Sequence record: MT446396.1
Length of the DNA stretch: 64,000 nt
Reading direction: 5' to 3' (one strand)
Source of the DNA: Escherichia virus TH22
Shown here: positions 3,287-57,056 of the stretch, piece after piece
How the letters are laid out: every line of letters starts with the position of its first letter
Numbering within the stretch: position 1 is the stretch's first letter
Program-made: the position numbers and the translations under genes
Notes under the pieces: model-generated
What the model was told of the DNA's origin: nothing
Seen by the model: the letters and a program-made list of their open reading frames with translations, nothing else
Database searches by the model: none

Positions 3287-3344
3287 TGTGTACAACCAAA
3301 TGGGGCTATGACATAATGGTCCCACAATCAATGAGGAAAATATT
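3287..3344 (+). promoter_or_regulatory. early (sigma70-like) promoter plus leader
   Basis: GTGTACAA -35, 17-nt spacer, CATAAT -10, leader CAATGAGGAAAAT. Confidence 0.5.
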
Positions 3345-4031
3345 ATGAACGGTCCTAAAACTTTTAATAGTCAAGCTCGTGCAGTAGGTGGTTTTGCCGG
3401 CGGTATTTCTAATGATAAAATCAAGAACGAGCCTATGTTCTTCAACTGTAGTTTAGAATTTGCTTATAATAACGGCGGTCCTATTACTCGCAGCTTCATC
3501 ATGAACTTGCCAGATGATTGGAACACCGACCAGGTTGTATTTGATTCTCGGGTTCATATGCTGATGCCTGGTTGGTATCCTGCTATCCCAGGTTATCACC
3601 ATGACGATGTACCACGCCCGGATATTCCGGTTGGTCAACACTTTATTACTGCAGGGCAACCTGATTATGATAATCCTCGTTACCATTCTGAACATATTCT
3701 TGGTCTTGTTAACGCTGATGTGTGTCCTACTTATTTTGCAACCGGAACTGCACAATTTAGTCAGATTCCTGAAGGCGAACTTATCTATCGCCAGTGGCAT
3801 AAAGAAGTTCTGGAAAAAATTGAGTCCAATGAATTAACCAAGTGGGATGCTCCTGACCGCACGTTGCTCCAGTTTGATTGGCAGACATGGCATACAGGTT
3901 CTCGCGCAGTAAGTAACGGTTGGCGCTGGTTTGGTCGCGTGTCTCGTAATACCGACCGTGTTAAAAAGATTACAAATGAAATCCGCGTTAATGCTCAAGT
4001 ATATCTGGAATTCCCTATGGAGGGATGGTAA
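3345..4031 (+). CDS. hypothetical protein
   Basis: Early promoter (GTGTACAA -35, CATAAT -10) and SD upstream; 228 aa. Confidence 0.5.
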   Translation: MNGPKTFNSQARAVGGFAGGISNDKIKNEPMFFNCSLEFAYNNGGPITRSFIMNLPDDWNTDQVVFDSRVHMLMPGWYPAIPGYHHDDVPRPDIPVGQHFITAGQPDYDNPRYHSEHILGLVNADVCPTYFATGTAQFSQIPEGELIYRQWHKEVLEKIESNELTKWDAPDRTLLQFDWQTWHTGSRAVSNGWRWFGRVSRNTDRVKKITNEIRVNAQVYLEFPMEGW

Positions 4032-5808: not shown

Positions 5809-5864
5809 GTTTACATCTCCAAACGATAGGGTTATAATGACCCTATCAACTACGGAGAACAAAC
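5809..5864 (+). promoter_or_regulatory. early promoter with -10 inside inverted repeat, upstream of denV
   Basis: GTTTACA -35, TATAAT -10 within GATAGGG..CCCTATC, leader ATCAACTACGGAG. Confidence 0.55.
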
Positions 5865-6281
5865 ATGACTCGCATTAATTTAACCCTGGTATCTGAACTT
5901 GCTGACCAACACCTTATGGCTGAATACCGTGAGCTTCCTCGCGTGTTTGGTGCTGTTCGTAAGCATGTGCAAAATGGTAAAAAGGTGTCTGACTTTAAAA
6001 TCCCATCATCTTTTCTTTTAGGAACTGGTCATGTCACCTTCTTTTATGATAAGCTTTTGTTCCTTAAAAACCGTCATCAAGAACTTATTGCTGAATGTTT
6101 AAAGCGAGGGTTTAATATAAAAGATATTTCTACCCAAGATTTAAATGATATTCCTGATGAATGGAAGAATGATTATCAACCATCAATCTGGTCAATTGAA
6201 ATCAGTCAATCCAGACTGAATGAGAAAATTTCTCAAAAGCCTACCTGGTACAAATACTATGGGAAAGCTGTGTACGCTTAA
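5865..6281 (+). CDS. denV: endonuclease V (pyrimidine dimer DNA glycosylase)
   Basis: 138 aa; [35 protein letters not shown] near-identical to T4 endo V. Confidence 0.95.
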
Positions 6282-6329
6282 CTAAAAAGGTTGTATAATG
6301 ATTTTATCAACCAAACAATGGAATATAAA

Positions 6330-12590: not shown

Positions 12591-12648
12591 GTTTACATCC
12601 TCATCAAAAGGGTGTACTATTATCCCATCAACTACTGAGGAGAATACA
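12591..12648 (+). promoter_or_regulatory. early promoter plus conserved leader
   Basis: GTTTACA -35, TACTAT -10, leader ATCAACTACTGAGGAG. Confidence 0.55.
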
Positions 12649-15884: not shown

Positions 15885-16071
15885 GAAGGTCTTCTTATCA
15901 TATGGAAGACCCAATAAAGGTCGGCGCTGGTATCTCGAAGCAGTCTGTCGGAAAACTGGCAGACGAATCAACATTAAGTACACGTGTAAACCAACTTCCA
16001 AACAAACCAGGCGTTTTGTTAACTGGGCTATCAATATTATAAGATTCCATAATTTTTGGAGTGCAATCTAA
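15885..16071 (+). CDS. hypothetical small basic protein
   Basis: Short ORF ending just before terminator at 16071; weak SD. Confidence 0.3.
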
Positions 16072-16096
16072 GGACCCTTCGGGGTCCTTTTTTATT
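16071..16096 (+). terminator. rho-independent terminator (UUCG tetraloop)
   Basis: AGGACCC-TTCG-GGGTCCT then TTTTTATTTT. Confidence 0.7.
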
Positions 16097-16106
16097 TTAA
16101 AAAGTA

Positions 16107-16174
16107 GTGTACAACAAGATGGTCATGAGGCATAATGATTCCATACTGAGTTACCAAATAAACTGGAGAATAAA
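16107..16174 (+). promoter_or_regulatory. early promoter plus CATACTGAGTTACCAAA leader
   Basis: GTGTACAA -35, CATAAT -10. Confidence 0.5.
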
Positions 16175-16381
16175 ATGTTAGAATTAATCAAAGCTGCTGG
16201 TGAAAAAGGTCTGATGGTTAACACTCGTGACCCTGAACAACGTCAAGCATTTGGTGAGTTAAAAGCCAAAGGTCTGGTTAAAGCATCCCTTGGTATTGGT
16301 AATGCTTTGCGTGTGACTTTGACCCCTGCAGGTAAAGCAATGTTCTTCCCTAAACCATTACCAAAACGTCGTCGCAAGTGA
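16175..16381 (+). CDS. hypothetical protein
   Basis: Terminator then early promoter with CATACTGAGTTACCAAA leader upstream. Confidence 0.45.
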   Translation: MLELIKAAGEKGLMVNTRDPEQRQAFGELKAKGLVKASLGIGNALRVTLTPAGKAMFFPKPLPKRRRK

Positions 16382-16387
16382 GGAATT

Positions 16388-16690
16388 ATGAAAAAGTATG
16401 AAATTGACATGATTGATGCATGTCTGAAATCTGCTGACCATTTTAAATTGAAAATGCACAAGTTAAGAGGAATGGTCAAAACTCCAGAAGAGAAGAAACG
16501 TTATGCTCTGAAGGAGAAATGTAAAGCTCTTATCATGATGGATAAGCTGCAAATGGTCGCCGCAGAAGCTCACAGGACAAGAAAAGCAGAGGCTCTTGGT
16601 GTTTATATGGCTGAACAGATTCATCGCGCACAGCAAGCCGTTAAGAGCGCCTGGTTCAGTGGTGAAAATACTGAAAGAACTTTTAATTAA
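16388..16690 (+). CDS. hypothetical protein
   Basis: SD GAGGAATT upstream. Confidence 0.45.
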   Translation: MKKYEIDMIDACLKSADHFKLKMHKLRGMVKTPEEKKRYALKEKCKALIMMDKLQMVAAEAHRTRKAEALGVYMAEQIHRAQQAVKSAWFSGENTERTFN

Positions 16691-16692
16691 AT

Positions 16693-16760
16693 GTGTACAC
16701 AAGTATGGGAGCGTGGCATAATGTTCCTATACTGAGTTACCAAACAAACGGGAGAATAAA
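16693..16760 (+). promoter_or_regulatory. early promoter plus CATACTGAGTTACCAAA-type leader
   Basis: GTGTACAC -35, CATAAT -10, leader TATACTGAGTTACCAAA. Confidence 0.5.
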
Positions 16761-17285
16761 ATGGAAGCCAAATCAATCTTTAATCTGATTAATTACAATA
16801 ATGGTAATTTTAAATCAGAAGCACAAAGCAAGTTCTTTAATGATGTTGCTTGTGCAGGTGAGATTACAGTATCAGGTGGTCAAACTTATAAAAACGCCTG
16901 GAACTGGATTGTGACTGTTGATTCAGTTGGTATTGTTGATGTGTATAAAAACACTAACAAAAACCGCTCTTTGTTCTGGTCAAGAGAGACTAATGCTGAG
17001 TATCAAGCGGCAAGAGCAAAGAAAAATATGCCAACTGAATCTGATATCCAAAACATCAAATCAGATATCCAATATTATGATGGTCTGATTGCTGAACAAC
17101 AAGCAGTGCTTGATAAGTTCAATGAAATCAAAGCATGTAAAGAGATTCCTGAATTCATGCGGGAATCAGTTAATGAACAATACAATCTCACTTCAGAGCG
17201 TATTGAAACCTATACCAAACAAAGAGCAGAGCGCCAGGTACTCCTTCAGAAGTTTGAAGAGCGTTTAAAGACGGTTCTCGCATAA
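16761..17285 (+). CDS. hypothetical protein
   Basis: Early promoter with CATACTGAGTTACCAAA leader upstream. Confidence 0.45.
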   Translation: MEAKSIFNLINYNNGNFKSEAQSKFFNDVACAGEITVSGGQTYKNAWNWIVTVDSVGIVDVYKNTNKNRSLFWSRETNAEYQAARAKKNMPTESDIQNIKSDIQYYDGLIAEQQAVLDKFNEIKACKEIPEFMRESVNEQYNLTSERIETYTKQRAERQVLLQKFEERLKTVLA

Positions 17286-42581: not shown

Positions 42582-44005
42582 AAACTATTTTATCCCAGCT
42601 ACTCTTTAACAAGGAATATTTTGTTAAAGTCTGGCCATATCTGAATAGCACATATTTTGAAAAGGGTCCCGCGAAGACCCTTTTTAATACGATTAACGAA
42701 CACGTAAAAGAATATCAAGCTGTACCAACTAAGACTGCACTTGATATTGCACTTGACAACTCTGACCTTTCTGAAGTCGAATATGAAGGCACAAAGAAAC
42801 TTTTAGGAGTCCTGGCCGATACTCCAGAAGACCAGGAATGGTTGGTTAGAGAAACCGAAAAGTATGTACAGAAGTCTGCGATGTTCAATGCCACATCCAG
42901 GATTATCGAAATCCAGAGTAATGCCGAACTTCCTAAAGATAAACGTGATAAACGAATCCCGGATATCGGTGCTATCCCTGACATCATGCGTGATGCATTG
43001 TCCATCTGTTTTGATTCTGCCCTTGGTCATGACTGGTTAAACGATTACGAGGCTCGATTCCAGACTTATCTGAACAAATCGAAGAAAGTTCCGTTCCGCA
43101 TTAACATCCTGAATAAAATTACGAAAGGCGGGGTTGAGTACGGTACAGAGAACGTTTTACTAGCCGGGACGAATGTCGGTAAATCTCTGGGGCTTTGTTC
43201 GTTAGCGGCTGACTATCTTCAGACTGGTCATAACGTTCTTTATATAAGCATGGAAATGGCCGAAGAAGTATGTGCCAAACGTATTGATGCCAACTTGCTG
43301 GATGTATCTCTGGATGATATTGATGAAGGTCATATATCATGGGCGGAATATAAAGCTAAGATGGAAAAATGGCGTGCTTCCGGGACTCTCGGGACTCTGA
43401 AGATAAAACAATATCCAACTGGTGGTGCTCATGCGGATACCTTCCGTGCATTACTGAACGAGTACAAACTGAAGCAAGGGTTTGTACCGGATGTGATTAT
43501 TGTTGACTACCTGGCAATCTGTGCAAGCTCAAGACTGAAAACGTTTACCGAAAACAGTTACGGCCTGATTAAGATGGTTGCAGAAGAACTTCGTGGTCTG
43601 GCAGTTGAGAAAAATGTGGTCTTGTGGACTGCAGCGCAGACAACCAGGGGCGCGAACGTTGCAGCCGAGATTGATATGGCTGACATTGCAGAATCCTTTG
43701 GTATTGCTCACACGGCTGACTTTATGCTGGGTGTTGTTGAGACCGAAGAATTCGCTCAAATGGGGCTGCAGTTAATCAAACAGCTTAAGTCTCGTTATGG
43801 TGATAAGAACTACTATAATAAATTCAAGATGGGTGTTAAGAAAGGTAATCAGCGCTGGTATGAGGTTGATGATGATTCGGCTCCTAAACAAGGCCCTACG
43901 GTTAAAGAAGCCACCGGTGAGATGAATCGCCAGGCCGAAATGAATCGACAAACCAGGGTCAACAGGAGCGACCTGGATGACCTTGCTGCTCAAATGAAAT
44001 TTTAA
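42566..44005 (+). CDS. 41: replicative DNA helicase gp41 (DnaB-like)
   Basis: Walker A GTNVGKS; KQLKSRYGDKN; apparent GTG start overlapping upstream gene; matches T4 gp41. Confidence 0.95.
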   Translation: MVEVVETILSQLLFNKEYFVKVWPYLNSTYFEKGPAKTLFNTINEHVKEYQAVPTKTALDIALDNSDLSEVEYEGTKKLLGVLADTPEDQEWLVRETEKYVQKSAMFNATSRIIEIQSNAELPKDKRDKRIPDIGAIPDIMRDALSICFDSALGHDWLNDYEARFQTYLNKSKKVPFRINILNKITKGGVEYGTENVLLAGTNVGKSLGLCSLAADYLQTGHNVLYISMEMAEEVCAKRIDANLLDVSLDDIDEGHISWAEYKAKMEKWRASGTLGTLKIKQYPTGGAHADTFRALLNEYKLKQGFVPDVIIVDYLAICASSRLKTFTENSYGLIKMVAEELRGLAVEKNVVLWTAAQTTRGANVAAEIDMADIAESFGIAHTADFMLGVVETEEFAQMGLQLIKQLKSRYGDKNYYNKFKMGVKKGNQRWYEVDDDSAPKQGPTVKEATGEMNRQAEMNRQTRVNRSDLDDLAAQMKF

Positions 44006-44014
44006 AATATTTTA

Positions 44015-44038
44015 AAAGGGGCTTACGGCCCCTTTTTC
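44015..44038 (+). terminator. rho-independent terminator after gene 41
   Basis: AAAGGGGC-TTAC-GGCCCCTTT then TTCTT. Confidence 0.65.
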
Positions 44039-44076
44039 TTATGTTATAATGACCCTATCAACTACTGGAGAATAAA

Positions 44077-44394
44077 ATGAAAACTATTGATTGCAAGGCG
44101 GAATACAAAGTTTATTATCATGGCTCAAGCTCTAATGCTGGAATCCAAAATATGCTTTGCCCTCCTGATGCAACTGGTGTTCTGTCAGAAGTTGGGCGTA
44201 AGAAAAATTTAGGGCGTGTGTTTTTTACTGAAGATATTGGTTTGGCGCGTATCTATGCAGGAAGAGCAGCTCGCTCATATGGAGGAGAACCCCGTCTTTA
44301 TCGTGTGATTGCACCTGTTGACGTGGTTTGTTTAAATGATACTAAAGGCGCAACCGTTTATCACGCCGCCTGGGCCTTCTGTGAGGAAATCTAA
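44077..44394 (+). CDS. hypothetical protein
   Basis: Terminator, promoter and conserved leader upstream. Confidence 0.45.
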   Translation: MKTIDCKAEYKVYYHGSSSNAGIQNMLCPPDATGVLSEVGRKKNLGRVFFTEDIGLARIYAGRAARSYGGEPRLYRVIAPVDVVCLNDTKGATVYHAAWAFCEEI

Positions 44395-51953: not shown

Positions 51954-52088
51954 CCAAAGACCTTAGAACCATTATACACAGTAAAAATAAAAGCGTTAAA
52001 GGCGAAAAAGTGGTGTACATGAAAGATGAACGGTGTATAATAATTTCATACTGAGTTACCAAATCGTCCGTAAGATGAGAAAAATATC

Positions 52089-52835
52089 ATGACTTTATCA
52101 AAAACCAAAACGCTGAAAGTTAAACGTCGCCTGGAACACACTCAAGCTTCTGCTAAACGTCGTGGCAAGGACTTTAACCTGGATTTCAATTACCTGGTTA
52201 ACATTCTTGACCAAAAAGTTTGTGCTTATTCTGGTGAAACATTTAATAACTCTATTGAAGGTGAGAAGTTATCATTAGAGCGTTTTAACAATGACATTGG
52301 TTATATCAAAGGTAATGTTATTCCTGTTAAAAAGAAATACAACACCATGCGTTCTGATTGGTCCCTGGATGAGCTTAAACAACGTCGTGATGATGTTGCT
52401 GTAAAAATTGCTCGTCCATCTGTCAAGAAGATTGAAAAGTTAAATCTGACTGCAGAGAAATGGGAACAGATTAAAAAGTCATATACCCATATCAAGAACA
52501 TCCAACACAAACGTGAGAATCGCGTTAAGCATTATGCTCAAATGAGTAAATCAGAGCAGTCCAAAGAAAACCAATTAAAAATGGTTGCTCTGAAGGCTCG
52601 CATTGATGGTTCCCGTATTGCGGAAGGTCATGAGCTTACTAAATTGAACGTCTTGCTCAAAGGTAATGACTGGAAAGTTACCAAGAAATTAACTAATGCT
52701 GAAACGCTTTTTGATTGCTATGATAAAATCATTCAAGGTCTTGAGCGTTTTGAGAAGATTGGTTTTATTGGTAAATTAAAACTGAAACGTGGTCTGCCTT
52801 TGAACGCGTCAATTTTTAAACTGATTAGAGGTTAA
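52089..52835 (+). CDS. hypothetical protein with degenerate HNH-like motif (Srd position)
   Basis: CAYSGETF...LSLERFNNDIGYIKGNVIPVKKKYNTMRSD resembles an HNH pattern with Cys/His replaced. Confidence 0.45.
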   Translation: MTLSKTKTLKVKRRLEHTQASAKRRGKDFNLDFNYLVNILDQKVCAYSGETFNNSIEGEKLSLERFNNDIGYIKGNVIPVKKKYNTMRSDWSLDELKQRRDDVAVKIARPSVKKIEKLNLTAEKWEQIKKSYTHIKNIQHKRENRVKHYAQMSKSEQSKENQLKMVALKARIDGSRIAEGHELTKLNVLLKGNDWKVTKKLTNAETLFDCYDKIIQGLERFEKIGFIGKLKLKRGLPLNASIFKLIRG

Positions 52836-55415: not shown

Positions 55416-55476
55416 GTGTACAAGGCCAATGGAAAGAGACATAATCATCTCATCAACTACTGATGAGGATAACAAA
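55416..55476 (+). promoter_or_regulatory. early promoter plus conserved leader
   Basis: GTGTACAAG -35, CATAAT -10, leader ATCAACTACTGATGAGG. Confidence 0.5.
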
Positions 55477-56492: not shown

Positions 56493-56564
56493 GTGTACAA
56501 ACTCTTGGGGTCAGAGTATAATGACCCCACTGGAGAATAAACTTATTAACCAAGAGAGAAAATT
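56493..56564 (+). promoter_or_regulatory. early promoter with -10 inside perfect inverted repeat
   Basis: GTGTACAA -35; GGGGTCA-GAGTATAA-TGACCCC. Confidence 0.5.
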
Positions 56565-57056
56565 ATGAAAGTTGAAGCTGGTGATATTGTACGTGTTTCT
56601 AAAGAATCTCGTTCTAAAGCTGCTGGTCGTTTTGTTGAGGTTGTGGGTCTTCGCACTAATTTAGTAGGTGGAATTAAAGAAGTTAAAGTGCGTATTATTC
56701 CTAAAAATGGTCAGACTGAAACTCAATTGGCTTATGTGCATCCTAAATTCCTGGAATCAACCGAATTTACTGGGTACATCGCTCCTGTGACCGAAGAAGT
56801 TGAAACCATTGACCAGTCTCATGTTGGGGTTGATTTTAAATGGAAATTGGGCAAAGGTGTCTTTTTTGTTTCACCTAAACCGTTTGAATATGTTGACGAA
56901 CCTTTTGGTACTTATGAAACCACTAGCATGTCTGGTTACATCACAGACCAGTGGGTTGAAGAAGGCGTTAAGCTCTATAACATTGTGTTCCTTGGAACCT
57001 TTAAGGTGGTTCCTGAAAGCTTTATCGTTGAGTATGCTGATATTCATCGTGCCTAA
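56565..57056 (+). CDS. hypothetical protein (paralog of 55734..56486)
   Basis: C-terminal GYITDQWVEEGVKLYNIVFLGTFKVVP. Confidence 0.45.
   Translation: MKVEAGDIVRVSKESRSKAAGRFVEVVGLRTNLVGGIKEVKVRIIPKNGQTETQLAYVHPKFLESTEFTGYIAPVTEEVETIDQSHVGVDFKWKLGKGVFFVSPKPFEYVDEPFGTYETTSMSGYITDQWVEEGVKLYNIVFLGTFKVVPESFIVEYADIHRA

What the first reader, a model, noticed from the sequence alone, without database searches (positions are those of the whole stretch)
16107..16174. Second leader family CATACTGAGTTACCAAA before three dispersed genes
A distinct leader (C/T)ATACTGAGTTACCAAA, about 18 nt upstream of the SD, follows early promoters before the genes at 16175, 16761 and 52089 (leaders near 16143, 16727, 52047). 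This suggests a separate post-transcriptional regulon or a second mobile cassette type.
Basis: seen in the sequence. Interest (0 to 1): 0.4.

Follow-up and report, generated by a model that had tools for sequence, protein, structure and literature searches.

The report
Shared start of phage early transcripts
The repeated 16-base "leader" is the invariant first stretch of the transcripts made from one family of early-promoter cassettes in a T4-like coliphage, a known kind of repeated regulatory module (PeSL) at which these phages swap small genes, so it is real but largely explained.

Summary
(C/T)ATACTGAGTTACCAAA occurs exactly three times in the window (16142, 16728, 52047, + strand). No other copy has 3 mismatches or fewer; 0.43 are expected by chance.

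The window is a T4-like coliphage of the genus Gaprivervirus (VR7/UPEC07 group). Each copy starts 6 nt after the -10 box of a T4-type early promoter (GTGTACA-16/17 nt-[C/T]ATAAT). The motif is therefore the inferred +1 to +16 of the mRNAs for a VR7ORF098c-like gene, nrdC.8 and srd.

The core ATACTGAGTTA is repeated 10-12 times per Gaprivervirus genome. It also occurs in Morganella phage MP1 and two Dhakavirus phages. It always sits at the same offset from the promoter, in front of at least 16 unrelated small genes. Its distance to the start codon varies (29-45 nt).

Differences between related genomes have their junctions inside or at the edge of this block. About half of the cassettes also form a hairpin across the -10 box whose 3' arm includes +1 to +8.

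This matches the published PeSL "promoter-early stem-loop" cassettes. The "second mobile cassette type" reading is supported. The "post-transcriptional regulon" reading is not: the RNA is unstructured, has no partner sequence, and precedes genes with no shared function. Why the 11-mer is invariant across phage subfamilies remains unresolved.

The parts
16070..16099 (+). Intrinsic terminator-like hairpin (AAGGACCC-TTCG-GGGTCCTT) plus a T-run, directly upstream of the site-1 promoter. This is the stem-loop part of the cassette.
   Evidence: 8 pairs, of which 5 are G-C, then a T-run. (the segment 16060-16142 that contains it folds to -20.2 kcal/mol). The same hairpin + A/T tract + -35 block precedes other family-2 cassettes in VR7, VR20 and VR25.
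16107..16142 (+). Site-1 early promoter: -35 GTGTACA (16107-16113), 17-nt spacer, -10 CATAAT (16131-16136), discriminator GATTCC (16137-16142).
   Evidence: The same architecture is seen in 16 cassette classes.
16143..16158 (+). Site-1 leader motif ATACTGAGTTACCAAA, the inferred +1 to +16 of the transcript. The invariant core ATACTGAGTTA is 16143-16153.
   Evidence: The +1 is inferred from its position as the 7th base after the -10 hexamer; no transcription start site data exist.
16165..16177 (+). Shine-Dalgarno / RegB-S1 consensus GGAGAATAAAA overlapping the ATG (16175) of a 68-aa VR7ORF098c-like gene. nrdC.9 follows at 16388.
   Evidence: The consensus GGAGAAUAAAA is from PMC1702504. Family assignments are phrog_6001 and DUF7203.
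16693..16728 (+). Site-2 early promoter: -35 GTGTACA (16693-16699), 17-nt spacer, -10 CATAAT (16717-16722), discriminator GTTCCT (16723-16728).
16702..16733 (+). Hairpin spanning the -10 box. The 5' arm AGTATGGGAGCGT lies in the spacer. The 3' arm ATGTTCCTATACT runs from the last two bases of the -10 box through the discriminator to leader +1 to +5.
   Evidence: -18.1 kcal/mol; z -4.4 and -4.2 against spacer shuffles. The orthologues in VR7, VR20, VR25 and VR26 keep a hairpin with a different inner sequence.
16729..16744 (+). Site-2 leader motif ATACTGAGTTACCAAA (core 16729-16739).
16751..16763 (+). GGAGAATAAAA (RegB/S1 consensus and Shine-Dalgarno) overlapping the ATG (16761) of nrdC.8.
52013..52047 (+). 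Site-3 early promoter: -35 GTGTACA (52013-52019), 16-nt spacer, -10 TATAAT (52036-52041), discriminator AATTTC (52042-52047).
   Evidence: No significant hairpin across the -10 box.
52048..52063 (+). Site-3 leader motif ATACTGAGTTACCAAA (core 52048-52058). A 41-nt 5'UTR without GGAG leads to the ATG at 52089 of srd (then dda.1 and dda).
   Evidence: The VR7, VR25 and VR26 orthologues read ATACTGAGTTATTTAA.

Best explanation
**What it is.** The motif is the invariant initially transcribed segment (+1 to +11, extending to +16) of one sequence family of T4-type early-promoter cassettes of the PeSL kind. A full cassette has these parts in order:
- an upstream A/T tract, often with a terminator hairpin;
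- a sigma70 -35 box, GTGTACA;
- a variable 16-17-nt spacer;
- a -10 box, (C/T)ATAAT;
- a pyrimidine-rich discriminator;
- the leader;
- an A-rich linker;
- a Shine-Dalgarno sequence and ATG.

**How it works.**
- Inferred: host sigma70 RNA polymerase starts at the A of ATACTGAG, so every mRNA from these cassettes begins AUACUGAGUUA.
- Computed: the short leader is unstructured, which would keep the ribosome-binding site open. That site is a perfect RegB/S1 cleavage site at sites 1 and 2.
- Computed: on DNA, or in read-through RNA from upstream, the discriminator plus +1 to +8 form the 3' arm of a hairpin that encloses the -10 box in about half of the cassettes.
- Shown by comparison: the near-identical block of about 50 bp, from the -10 box through the leader to the Shine-Dalgarno sequence, is a patch of homology. 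Recombination there deletes, inserts or re-promotes single small genes.
- Inferred: the strict invariance of the 11-mer across phage subfamilies reflects purifying selection on a promoter-anchored function. The likeliest is the effect of the initially transcribed sequence on initiation and escape by host RNA polymerase.

It is not a stand-alone RNA regulatory element.
For: **Identity of the phage and genes.** Searches identify a Gaprivervirus. The genes downstream of the three sites are a VR7ORF098c-like gene (with nrdC.9), nrdC.8, and srd.

**The element is tied to the promoter.**
- All 10 VR7 copies, and all copies in VR20, VR25, VR26, MP1, 04086 and IME341, lie exactly 6 nt after the -10 box.
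- The distance from +1 to the ATG is 29-45 nt.
- In VR7, no promoter-less copy of the exact core was found among the hits with 4 mismatches or fewer to the 16-mer, on either strand.

**It is repeated.**
- Promoter-linked exact cores number 12, 11 and 12 in VR20, VR25 and VR26.
- There are 10 in 149 kb of VR7, against about 0.08 expected per genome.
- BLAST finds 10-13 places per Gaprivervirus genome.
- In an unbiased list of 37 VR7 early-promoter candidates, 10 carry this leader and about 14 carry ATCAAC....

**Conservation points to selection rather than recent copying.**
- The spacer (-29 to -14) carries almost no information.
- The discriminator and the Shine-Dalgarno context are genus-specific: GATTCC ... 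CTGGAGAATAAAATG in Gaprivervirus, GATCCC or TATCCC ... ACGGAGTCAAAAATG in MP1.
- Positions +1 to +11 are nevertheless identical in all 16 classes across three genera.

**Recombination junctions fall at the block.**
- VR26 lacks exactly VR7 ORF146c. The two alignment pieces overlap by 50 nt, and the overlap is the repeated block from -10 through the leader to the Shine-Dalgarno sequence.
- In VR26, the ORF098c gene carries the nrdC.8-type promoter, joined at the leader.
- One promoter + leader is followed by different genes in L088 compared with L112 and L032.
- A whole family-2 cassette with ORF045c is present in VR7 and absent from the window at 44005-44146.
- The promoter at window 3288, spacer included, occurs in VR20, IME341 and 04086 with the family-2 leader and another gene.

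**Hairpins.** 14 of 30 unique cassettes have a hairpin across the -10 box that is significant against spacer shuffles. So do 5 of 13 early-promoter candidates in the window.

**Literature.**
- PeSLs are defined as an AT-rich tract + sigma70-like promoter + stem-loop (commonly between -35 and -10 or overlapping -10) + Shine-Dalgarno sequence/ATG.
- Mini-circle crossovers were mapped between the -10 box and the Shine-Dalgarno sequence or ATG (PMC2839356; PMC4122927).
- The sequence from +2 to +10 can change promoter output by about three orders of magnitude (PMC5961368).
Against: - No transcription start site, promoter-activity or recombination experiment exists for this phage. The +1 is inferred from spacing alone.
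- Site 3 (srd) has no stem-loop and no GGAG, so it meets the PeSL description only in part.
- The published PeSL papers do not describe an invariant initially transcribed sequence. PeSL membership therefore does not explain why 11 bases are frozen across subfamilies.
- The motif has T5-G6. Published randomised-sequence data associate TG at +5/+6 with slower escape and initiation pausing, so 'optimised for fast escape' is not evident.
- Concerted evolution by the same recombination could contribute to the invariance within a genome.
Confidence: 0.7

Rival explanations
1. The 11-16-nt leader is a sequence-specific regulatory target that defines a sub-regulon of early genes. It would be recognised as RNA at the 5' end, or as DNA at +1 to +16, by a phage or host factor. 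One candidate is the still unidentified mechanism that shuts off T4-type early transcription. Another is a factor controlling mRNA stability or translation.
For: - The core is identical across three genera while its flanks differ.
- There are two discrete leader families in one genome.
- The literature states that early shut-off is explained by neither ModA nor AsiA, and that early promoters carry extra conserved information (PMC2988021).
- In MP1 one promoter carries the reverse complement of the leader, giving a 13-bp palindrome around the -10 box. That would suit a dimeric DNA binder.
Against: - The RNA has no structure, no Rfam match, no antisense partner in the window and no 16S complementarity above chance.
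- The downstream genes have no shared function.
- Its distance to the ribosome-binding site varies.
- RegB needs no information upstream of GGAG (PMC1702504).
- The palindrome is present in only some copies.
- No candidate binding protein was identified.
Confidence: 0.12
2. The block is a programmed pause element for RNA polymerase. Either CATACT at -1 to +5 acts as a -10-like hexamer that gives a sigma70-dependent promoter-proximal pause, or T5-G6 gives an initiation pause. The pause would tune or gate early transcription.
For: - CATACT matches TATAAT at 4 of 6 positions, including the critical A2 and T6.
- Lambda pR' uses AACGAT at +1 to +6 for its +16 pause (PMC4005639).
- TG at +5/+6 is the strongest slow-escape and pause signal in randomised initially transcribed sequences (PMC5961368).
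- The element is strictly anchored to the promoter.
Against: - This rests on sequence resemblance alone.
- No GGG discriminator-like run follows the hexamer.
- No Q-type antiterminator is known in T4-like phages (own knowledge, not tested here).
- The family-1 leader (ATCAAC...) lacks both features, yet sits on equivalent promoters.
Confidence: 0.1
3. The leader has no function of its own. It is hitch-hiking sequence copied with a recently amplified promoter cassette, and is kept uniform only by frequent recombination and gene conversion among copies.
For: - Recombination junctions lie in the block.
- The variants at +12 to +16 are genus-specific or lineage-specific. Three of the five MP1 copies read A at +12. 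The srd copy reads TTTAA in VR7, VR25 and VR26 but CCAAA in the window. This pattern looks like patchy conversion.
Against: - The spacer 10-30 nt upstream of the leader has diverged to near-randomness, and the Shine-Dalgarno context differs between genera. The 11-mer is nevertheless identical in Gaprivervirus, Dhakavirus and Gualtarvirus.
- No copy with 1-2 substitutions in the core was found next to a promoter in VR7.
- Conversion cannot act between genomes of different genera without co-infection and horizontal transfer.
Confidence: 0.08

Closest known systems
PeSLs (promoter-early stem-loops) of T4-like phages: RB49/phi1, T4/PST, KVP40/nt-1 (Arbiol et al. 2010, PMC2839356; Comeau et al. 2014, PMC4122927)
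   Same: - A composite repeated cassette: AT-rich tract, sigma70-type early promoter, stem-loop upstream of or overlapping the -10 box, then a Shine-Dalgarno sequence and ATG.
- Concentrated in the hyperplastic regions in front of small genes of unknown function.
- Indels and replacements between close relatives have their junctions in the cassette. The published mini-circle crossovers map between the -10 box and the Shine-Dalgarno sequence or ATG, which is exactly where this leader lies.
   Different: - The published descriptions do not report an invariant initially transcribed sequence or discrete leader families.
- Here the most conserved part of the cassette is +1 to +11, identical across three genera.
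- The -35 box is GTGTACA, rather than TTGACA (RB49) or TTTACW (T4/PST).
- Site 3 lacks a stem-loop.
- Promoter, terminator and mini-circle activity have not been tested in this phage.
T4 early promoters ('uber' UP/-35/TGn/-10 promoters; Hinton 2010, PMC2988021)
   Same: An A-rich tract like an UP element at about -44 to -40, a G(T/G)TTACA-type -35 box, a 16-17-nt spacer and a near-consensus -10 box. They sit in front of early genes such as srd, and carry extra conserved positions beyond the canonical elements.
   Different: Tequatrovirus records matched only the Shine-Dalgarno half of the query. The one T4-like promoter read here (cef, phage ACG-C40) carries the other leader, ATCAACTACTGAT, with a 13-bp inverted repeat across the -10 box.
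Effects of the initially transcribed sequence (ITS) on strong phage promoters (T5 N25 and its ITS variants, PMC12464699; randomised ITS libraries, PMC5961368)
   Same: A sequence in the first 10-20 transcribed bases that belongs functionally to the promoter and can change its output by orders of magnitude. The element here is anchored to the promoter in just this way.
   Different: No measurement exists for this sequence. It contains T5-G6, which the library data associate with slower rather than faster escape. The resemblance to the T5 N25 start (GATTC-ATA...TGAG) is recalled from memory and was not tested.
RegB/S1 target site GGAGAAUAAAA (GGAGRAYARAA) in T4 early mRNAs (Durand et al. 2006, PMC1702504)
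   Same: The leaders at sites 1 and 2 carry the exact 11-nt T4 consensus as their Shine-Dalgarno sequence. The leader is predicted single-stranded, and VR7 annotates a regB gene in the stretch that aligns to this window.
   Different: The RegB site is a separate element 6 nt downstream of the motif. It is absent at site 3 and occurs equally with the other leader family. RegB needs no specific sequence upstream of GGAG.

Membership tests
PeSL (promoter-early stem-loop cassette) | sigma70-type early promoter (-35 and -10 boxes at 16-18 nt spacing) | tested here: met
   GTGTACA, 17, 17 or 16 nt, then CATAAT, CATAAT or TATAAT at the three sites. Activity is not tested.
PeSL (promoter-early stem-loop cassette) | AT-rich tract upstream of the -35 box | tested here: met
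   The A-run at -44 to -40 and the T-rich tract at -52 to -46 are conserved across 16 cassette classes.
PeSL (promoter-early stem-loop cassette) | Stem-loop just upstream of the promoter, between -35 and -10, or overlapping the -10 box | tested here: inconclusive
   - Site 1: a strong upstream terminator hairpin and a weak hairpin across the -10 box (z -1.0).
- Site 2: a strong hairpin across the -10 box (-18.1 kcal/mol, z -4.4).
- Site 3: none.
- Family-wide: 14 of 30 unique cassettes are significant.
PeSL (promoter-early stem-loop cassette) | Shine-Dalgarno sequence and start codon of the downstream gene at the 3' end | tested here: met
   GGAG at 16165 and 16751, with ATG at 16175 and 16761. 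A weak GAG at 52077, with ATG at 52089.
PeSL (promoter-early stem-loop cassette) | Repeated in the genome, mainly in hyperplastic regions next to variable small genes | tested here: met
   10-12 promoter-linked copies per genome. Locations are the nrdC.x, e.x/tRNA, ndd, motA-upstream, 30.x and srd regions.
PeSL (promoter-early stem-loop cassette) | Indels and replacements between close relatives with junctions in the cassette | tested here: met
   - The ORF146c deletion in VR26, with a 50-nt overlap equal to the repeated block.
- The promoter swap at ORF098c in VR26, and different genes behind one promoter + leader.
- The ORF045c cassette, present in VR7 and absent from the window.
PeSL (promoter-early stem-loop cassette) | Demonstrated promoter and terminator/attenuator activity, and formation of mini-circles | not testable with these tools
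   Needs reporter assays and inverse PCR on phage DNA.
RegB/S1 cleavage site | Single-stranded 11-nt GGAGRAYARAA (T4 consensus GGAGAAUAAAA) | tested here: met
Sites 1 and 2 carry exact GGAGAATAAAA (16165-16175 and 16751-16761) in leaders predicted to be unstructured. Site 3 does not meet it (no GGAG).
sigma70-dependent promoter-proximal pause element (lambda pR' type) | [quoted passage not shown] | tested here: inconclusive
   CATACT at -1 to +5 matches TATAAT at 4 of 6 positions, including A2 and T6. Lambda uses AACGAT. Pausing itself cannot be tested here.
Structured cis-regulatory RNA leader (riboswitch, thermosensor or protein-binding hairpin) | A conserved secondary structure in the 5'UTR | tested here: not met
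   The minimum free energies of the three leaders are weaker than those of shuffled sequences (z +1.37, +1.00, +0.52). There is no relevant Rfam match in 15900-17000: the single match at E 0.13 lies upstream of the leader, over the terminator hairpin region.

The most novel reading that the evidence does not exclude
The invariant +1 to +11 block ATACTGAGTTA, identical in Gaprivervirus, Dhakavirus and Gualtarvirus while all its flanks diverge, could be a specific recognition element that splits T4-type early promoters into separately controlled classes (family 2, as against the ATCAAC family). Candidates are a programmed initiation or sigma70-dependent pause, or the target of the still unidentified factor that shuts off early transcription.
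Probability: 0.15. Interest if true: 0.6.

Novelty: new member of a known kind. Interest (0 to 1): 0.3.

Why it matters
The finding shows that VR7-like coliphages organise much of their early transcription through PeSL-type cassettes that fall into a few discrete leader families. It also gives base-level examples of single-gene deletion, insertion and promoter swapping at these cassettes.

In practice this helps to annotate early transcription units and to predict where accessory genes are gained and lost in a phage group used for therapy and biocontrol.

One open point could matter more widely: why an 11-base transcribed sequence is frozen across phage subfamilies. If it controls initiation, pausing or early shut-off by the host RNA polymerase, it would add a defined and easily testable element to the T4 early-promoter model.

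Tried and rejected
- **RNA structure.** The three leaders fold more weakly than shuffled sequences. A structured RNA element is rejected.
- **Rfam.** A scan of 15900-17000 gave only a sub-threshold sRNA match over the terminator hairpin region.
- **Pairing with E. coli 16S rRNA.** The best match is 6 nt of Watson-Crick pairing, or 9 nt with wobble, and -12.2 kcal/mol. All are within the shuffle distribution.
- **Antisense or complementary copy in the window.** None within 1 mismatch of the core. VR7 has no convincing copy either.
- **Mimicry of a host sequence.** No match in 5,426 E. coli genomes.
- **Literature search for the motif string.** Only unrelated primers. No paper in the library combined VR7 with early promoters. 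The T4 genome review PMC150520 is not held.
- **Metagenomic spread.** The 96 exact 16-mer hits without a promoter-like -10 box, almost all in unrelated viral contigs, and the 20 core hits in metagenomic contigs that lack a GTGTACA -35 box, are chance. The family is confined to isolate genomes of a few enterobacterial T4-like genera.
- **Common function of the downstream genes.** They are Srd, nrdC.8, DUF7203 and families of unknown function. Rejected.
- **One shared hairpin register for a covariation count.** The stems use different registers in different cassettes, so I used spacer-shuffle tests instead.

Full report
**1. Observation**

The pattern YATACTGAGTTACCAAA occurs at 16142-16158, 16728-16744 and 52047-52063, all on the + strand and all exact. 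No other site has 3 mismatches or fewer. The shuffled expectation is 0.43, and none of 100 shuffles reached three copies. The 11-nt core ATACTGAGTTA, allowing 1 mismatch, is also found only at these three places on either strand.

Each copy follows a T4-type early promoter: GTGTACA, a spacer of 17, 17 or 16 nt, then CATAAT, CATAAT or TATAAT, then a 6-nt pyrimidine-rich discriminator.

The A of ATACTGAG is the seventh base after the -10 hexamer. The motif is therefore the inferred +1 to +16 of the transcript. This rests on spacing only; no transcription start site data exist.

**2. Context**

The window is a T4-like coliphage of the genus Gaprivervirus. It is 92-96% identical to VR7, VR25 and VR26. 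The segment 51000-53500 is 100.0% identical to UPEC07 and TH55. It aligns collinearly with VR7 positions 64333 to 1.

- Site 1 precedes a 68-aa VR7ORF098c-like gene and nrdC.9.
- Site 2 precedes nrdC.8.
- Site 3 precedes srd, dda.1 and dda.

The products are families of unknown function (phrog_6001, DUF7203, phrog_2274) and the Srd anti-sigma factor. They share no function.

**3. The motif elsewhere**

- Exact 16-mers in IMG/VR that follow a promoter are confined to VR20, VR25, VR26 and Morganella phage MP1. The 96 other hits have no promoter-like -10 box upstream and are chance.
- A scan for ATAAT-N6-ATACTGAGTTA gives 12, 11 and 12 promoter-linked copies in VR20, VR25 and VR26. It gives 4 in MP1 (a fifth has ATTAT as its -10 box) and 1 in IME341. 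The hits in metagenomic contigs lack a GTGTACA -35 box.
- VR7 has 10 copies in the 149 kb I read, all exactly 6 nt after a -10 box. None of the hits with 4 mismatches or fewer to the 16-mer keeps the exact core without a promoter.
- BLAST of a 47-nt query finds 10-13 places per Gaprivervirus genome, 5 in MP1 (Gualtarvirus, outside Tevenvirinae) and 3 each in two Dhakavirus phages. Tequatrovirus records match only the Shine-Dalgarno half of the query.

**4. Anatomy of the family**

I grouped the copies by downstream gene, which gave 16 paralogous cassette classes in three genera.

- Information is high at the A-tract (-44 to -40), the -35 box, the -10 box and the discriminator.
- It is close to zero in the spacer (-29 to -14).
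- It falls again after about +20.
- The core +1 to +11 was the search key, so its invariance within this set is by construction. The independent evidence is the scan allowing 4 mismatches and the promoter-only list of 37 VR7 candidates.

In that promoter-only list, every family-2 copy has an exact core. There are no intermediates with 1-2 core substitutions. The other promoters carry unrelated starts: about 14 begin ATCAAC(T)A..., and a few begin ACACCAAC or ACTGGAG.

Positions +12 to +16 vary (CCAAA, ACAAA, CACAA, CACAC, TTTAA). The distance from +1 to the ATG varies from 29 to 45 nt. The element is therefore positioned by the promoter and not by the ribosome-binding site.

Between genera, the discriminator and the Shine-Dalgarno context differ:
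- Gaprivervirus: GATTCC ... CTGGAGAATAAAATG.
- MP1: GATCCC or TATCCC ... ACGGAGTCAAAAATG.

The 11-mer is nevertheless identical. That pattern argues for purifying selection on the 11-mer rather than recent copying of whole cassettes.

**5. Hairpins**

In many copies the 5' half of the 'variable' spacer is complementary to the discriminator plus the first 5-13 leader bases. The result is a hairpin with the -10 box in its loop. Examples:

- VR7 nrdC.8: TCAGTATGGGA-N14-TCCCATACTGA.
- VR7 ORF287c: a 13-bp stem.
- MP1: GGTAACTCAGTAT-N9-ATACTGAGTTACC.
- Window site 2: 16702-16733.

Against shuffles of the spacer alone, 14 of 30 unique cassettes are significant. Site 2 scores -18.1 kcal/mol (z -4.4), site 1 scores -6.9 (z -1.0), and site 3 has no hairpin. 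Among the 13 early-promoter candidates of the window, 5 have such a hairpin regardless of leader family. A T4-like cef promoter has a 13-bp version built on the ATCAACTACTGAT leader. Site 1 also has a strong terminator hairpin at 16070-16089.

**6. Recombination at the block**

- (a) VR26 lacks exactly ORF146c of VR7. The two alignment pieces overlap by 50 nt, and the overlap is the repeated block from the -10 box through the leader to the Shine-Dalgarno sequence. This is the signature of homologous deletion between two direct repeats.
- (b) In VR26, the ORF098c gene sits behind the nrdC.8-type promoter, joined at the leader.
- (c) One promoter + leader is followed by different genes in L088 compared with L112 and L032.
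- (d) VR7 carries a complete family-2 cassette (hairpin, promoter, leader, ORF045c) downstream of gene 41. The window lacks it at 44005-44146, where only the next cassette, of leader family 1, remains.
- (e) The promoter at window 3288, including its spacer, occurs in VR20, IME341 and 04086 joined at +1 to the family-2 leader and a different gene.
- (f) The srd leader reads CCAAA at +12 to +16 in the window but TTTAA in VR7, VR25 and VR26. Three adjacent bases (+12 to +14) differ, which looks like a short conversion patch.

**7. What was excluded**

- The leader RNAs are less structured than shuffled sequences (z +0.5 to +1.4).
- There is no relevant Rfam match.
- Complementarity to 16S rRNA is not above chance.
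- There is no antisense copy, no host homologue and no mention of the motif in the searchable literature.

The leaders at sites 1 and 2 contain the exact T4 RegB/S1 consensus GGAGAAUAAAA as their Shine-Dalgarno sequence. That element is separate from the motif, is absent at srd, occurs with the other leader family too, and needs no upstream information according to Durand et al. (PMC1702504).

**8. Comparison with what is known**

The published PeSL cassettes of RB49/phi1, T4/PST and KVP40/nt-1 are defined by four parts:
- an AT-rich tract;
- a sigma70-like early promoter;
- a stem-loop, most often between -35 and -10 or overlapping the -10 box;
- a Shine-Dalgarno sequence with the ATG.

They cluster in hyperplastic regions next to indels. 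Their mini-circle crossovers were mapped between the -10 box and the Shine-Dalgarno sequence or ATG (PMC2839356; PMC4122927).

All sequence-level features are met by the family here. Sites 1 and 2 meet them, and site 3 meets all but the stem-loop. The activity tests cannot be done with these tools.

What the PeSL papers do not describe is a frozen initially transcribed sequence with discrete families. Hinton's review notes that T4 early promoters carry extra, unexplained consensus, and that early shut-off remains unexplained (PMC2988021). Libraries of randomised initially transcribed sequences show that +2 to +10 can change promoter output by about three orders of magnitude, and that TG at +5/+6 marks initiation pausing (PMC5961368). 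The motif has T5-G6. Its CATACT at -1 to +5 is also a better -10-like hexamer than lambda pR' AACGAT (PMC4005639). These are leads, not tests.

**9. Verdict**

The 'post-transcriptional regulon' half is not.

The best explanation (confidence about 0.7) is that the motif is the promoter-anchored transcribed segment of a PeSL-type early-promoter cassette family. It supplies a standard unstructured 5' end. In many copies it forms the 3' arm of the hairpin across the -10 box. It also serves as the homology patch at which small genes are shuffled.

Why its first 11 bases are invariant across subfamilies is unresolved. A role in initiation or pausing by host RNA polymerase is the most economical guess. 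A specific regulatory target remains possible at about 0.15.

Novelty: a new member of a known kind. Interest: about 0.3.

Noticed in passing
window 5809-5860, 6270-6320, 12591-12640, 44045-44079, 55416-55470; also L114 365-435: A second leader family, ATCAAC(T/C)A..., starts the transcripts of other early promoters in the window and of about 14 of 37 VR7 early-promoter candidates. It also occurs at the cef promoter of a T4-like Tequatrovirus, where it is the 3' arm of a 13-bp inverted repeat across the -10 box.
   Followed up: partly
window 44014-44079: A cassette downstream of gene 41 has a G4C/GC4 hairpin (AAAAGGGGC-TTAC-GGCCCCTTTT) enclosing the -35 position. TATAAT follows, and then the leader ATCAACTACTGGAGAATAAAATG. 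VR7 has an extra family-2 cassette with ORF045c inserted just upstream of the equivalent element.
   Followed up: partly
window 3288-3345: The promoter GTGTACA-accaaatggggctatga-CATAAT-ggtccc, spacer included, is the same promoter that drives a family-2 leader and an MKLQRES... gene in VR20, IME341 and 04086. Here it is joined at +1 to a different leader (ACAATCAATGAGG) and a different gene.
   Followed up: partly
window 56493-56570: This early promoter has a perfect 6-bp inverted repeat around the -10 box (GGGGTC...GACCCC). Its transcript would begin ACTGGAGAATAAAC, so a near-consensus RegB/S1-like site sits 3 nt from the 5' end and about 25 nt from the real Shine-Dalgarno sequence and ATG.
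   Followed up: no
window 16070 (junction); L110 47012-47376: VR7 carries a 363-nt insertion (ORF099c, a secreted-looking small protein) that the window lacks. The junction is exactly at the start of the terminator hairpin. The ORF099c leader reads ACTCAATGTTGAGTTAATAAA, a small palindrome that may be a degenerate relative of the motif.
   Followed up: no
window 51970-51979 and 52033-52041: A 9-bp inverted repeat (ATTATACAC / GTGTATAAT) places a TATAAT with a TTTAACG -35-like box on the minus strand at the end of modA, facing away from srd. It is a possible divergent or antisense promoter, or it may be chance.
   Followed up: no
L113 430-2545 (Morganella phage MP1): Five consecutive small genes each have their own promoter followed by ATACTGAGTTA(A/C)CAAA. 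The MP1 annotators' 50-nt MEME promoter motif ends at +3, so the conserved leader was cut off in their annotation.
   Followed up: yes
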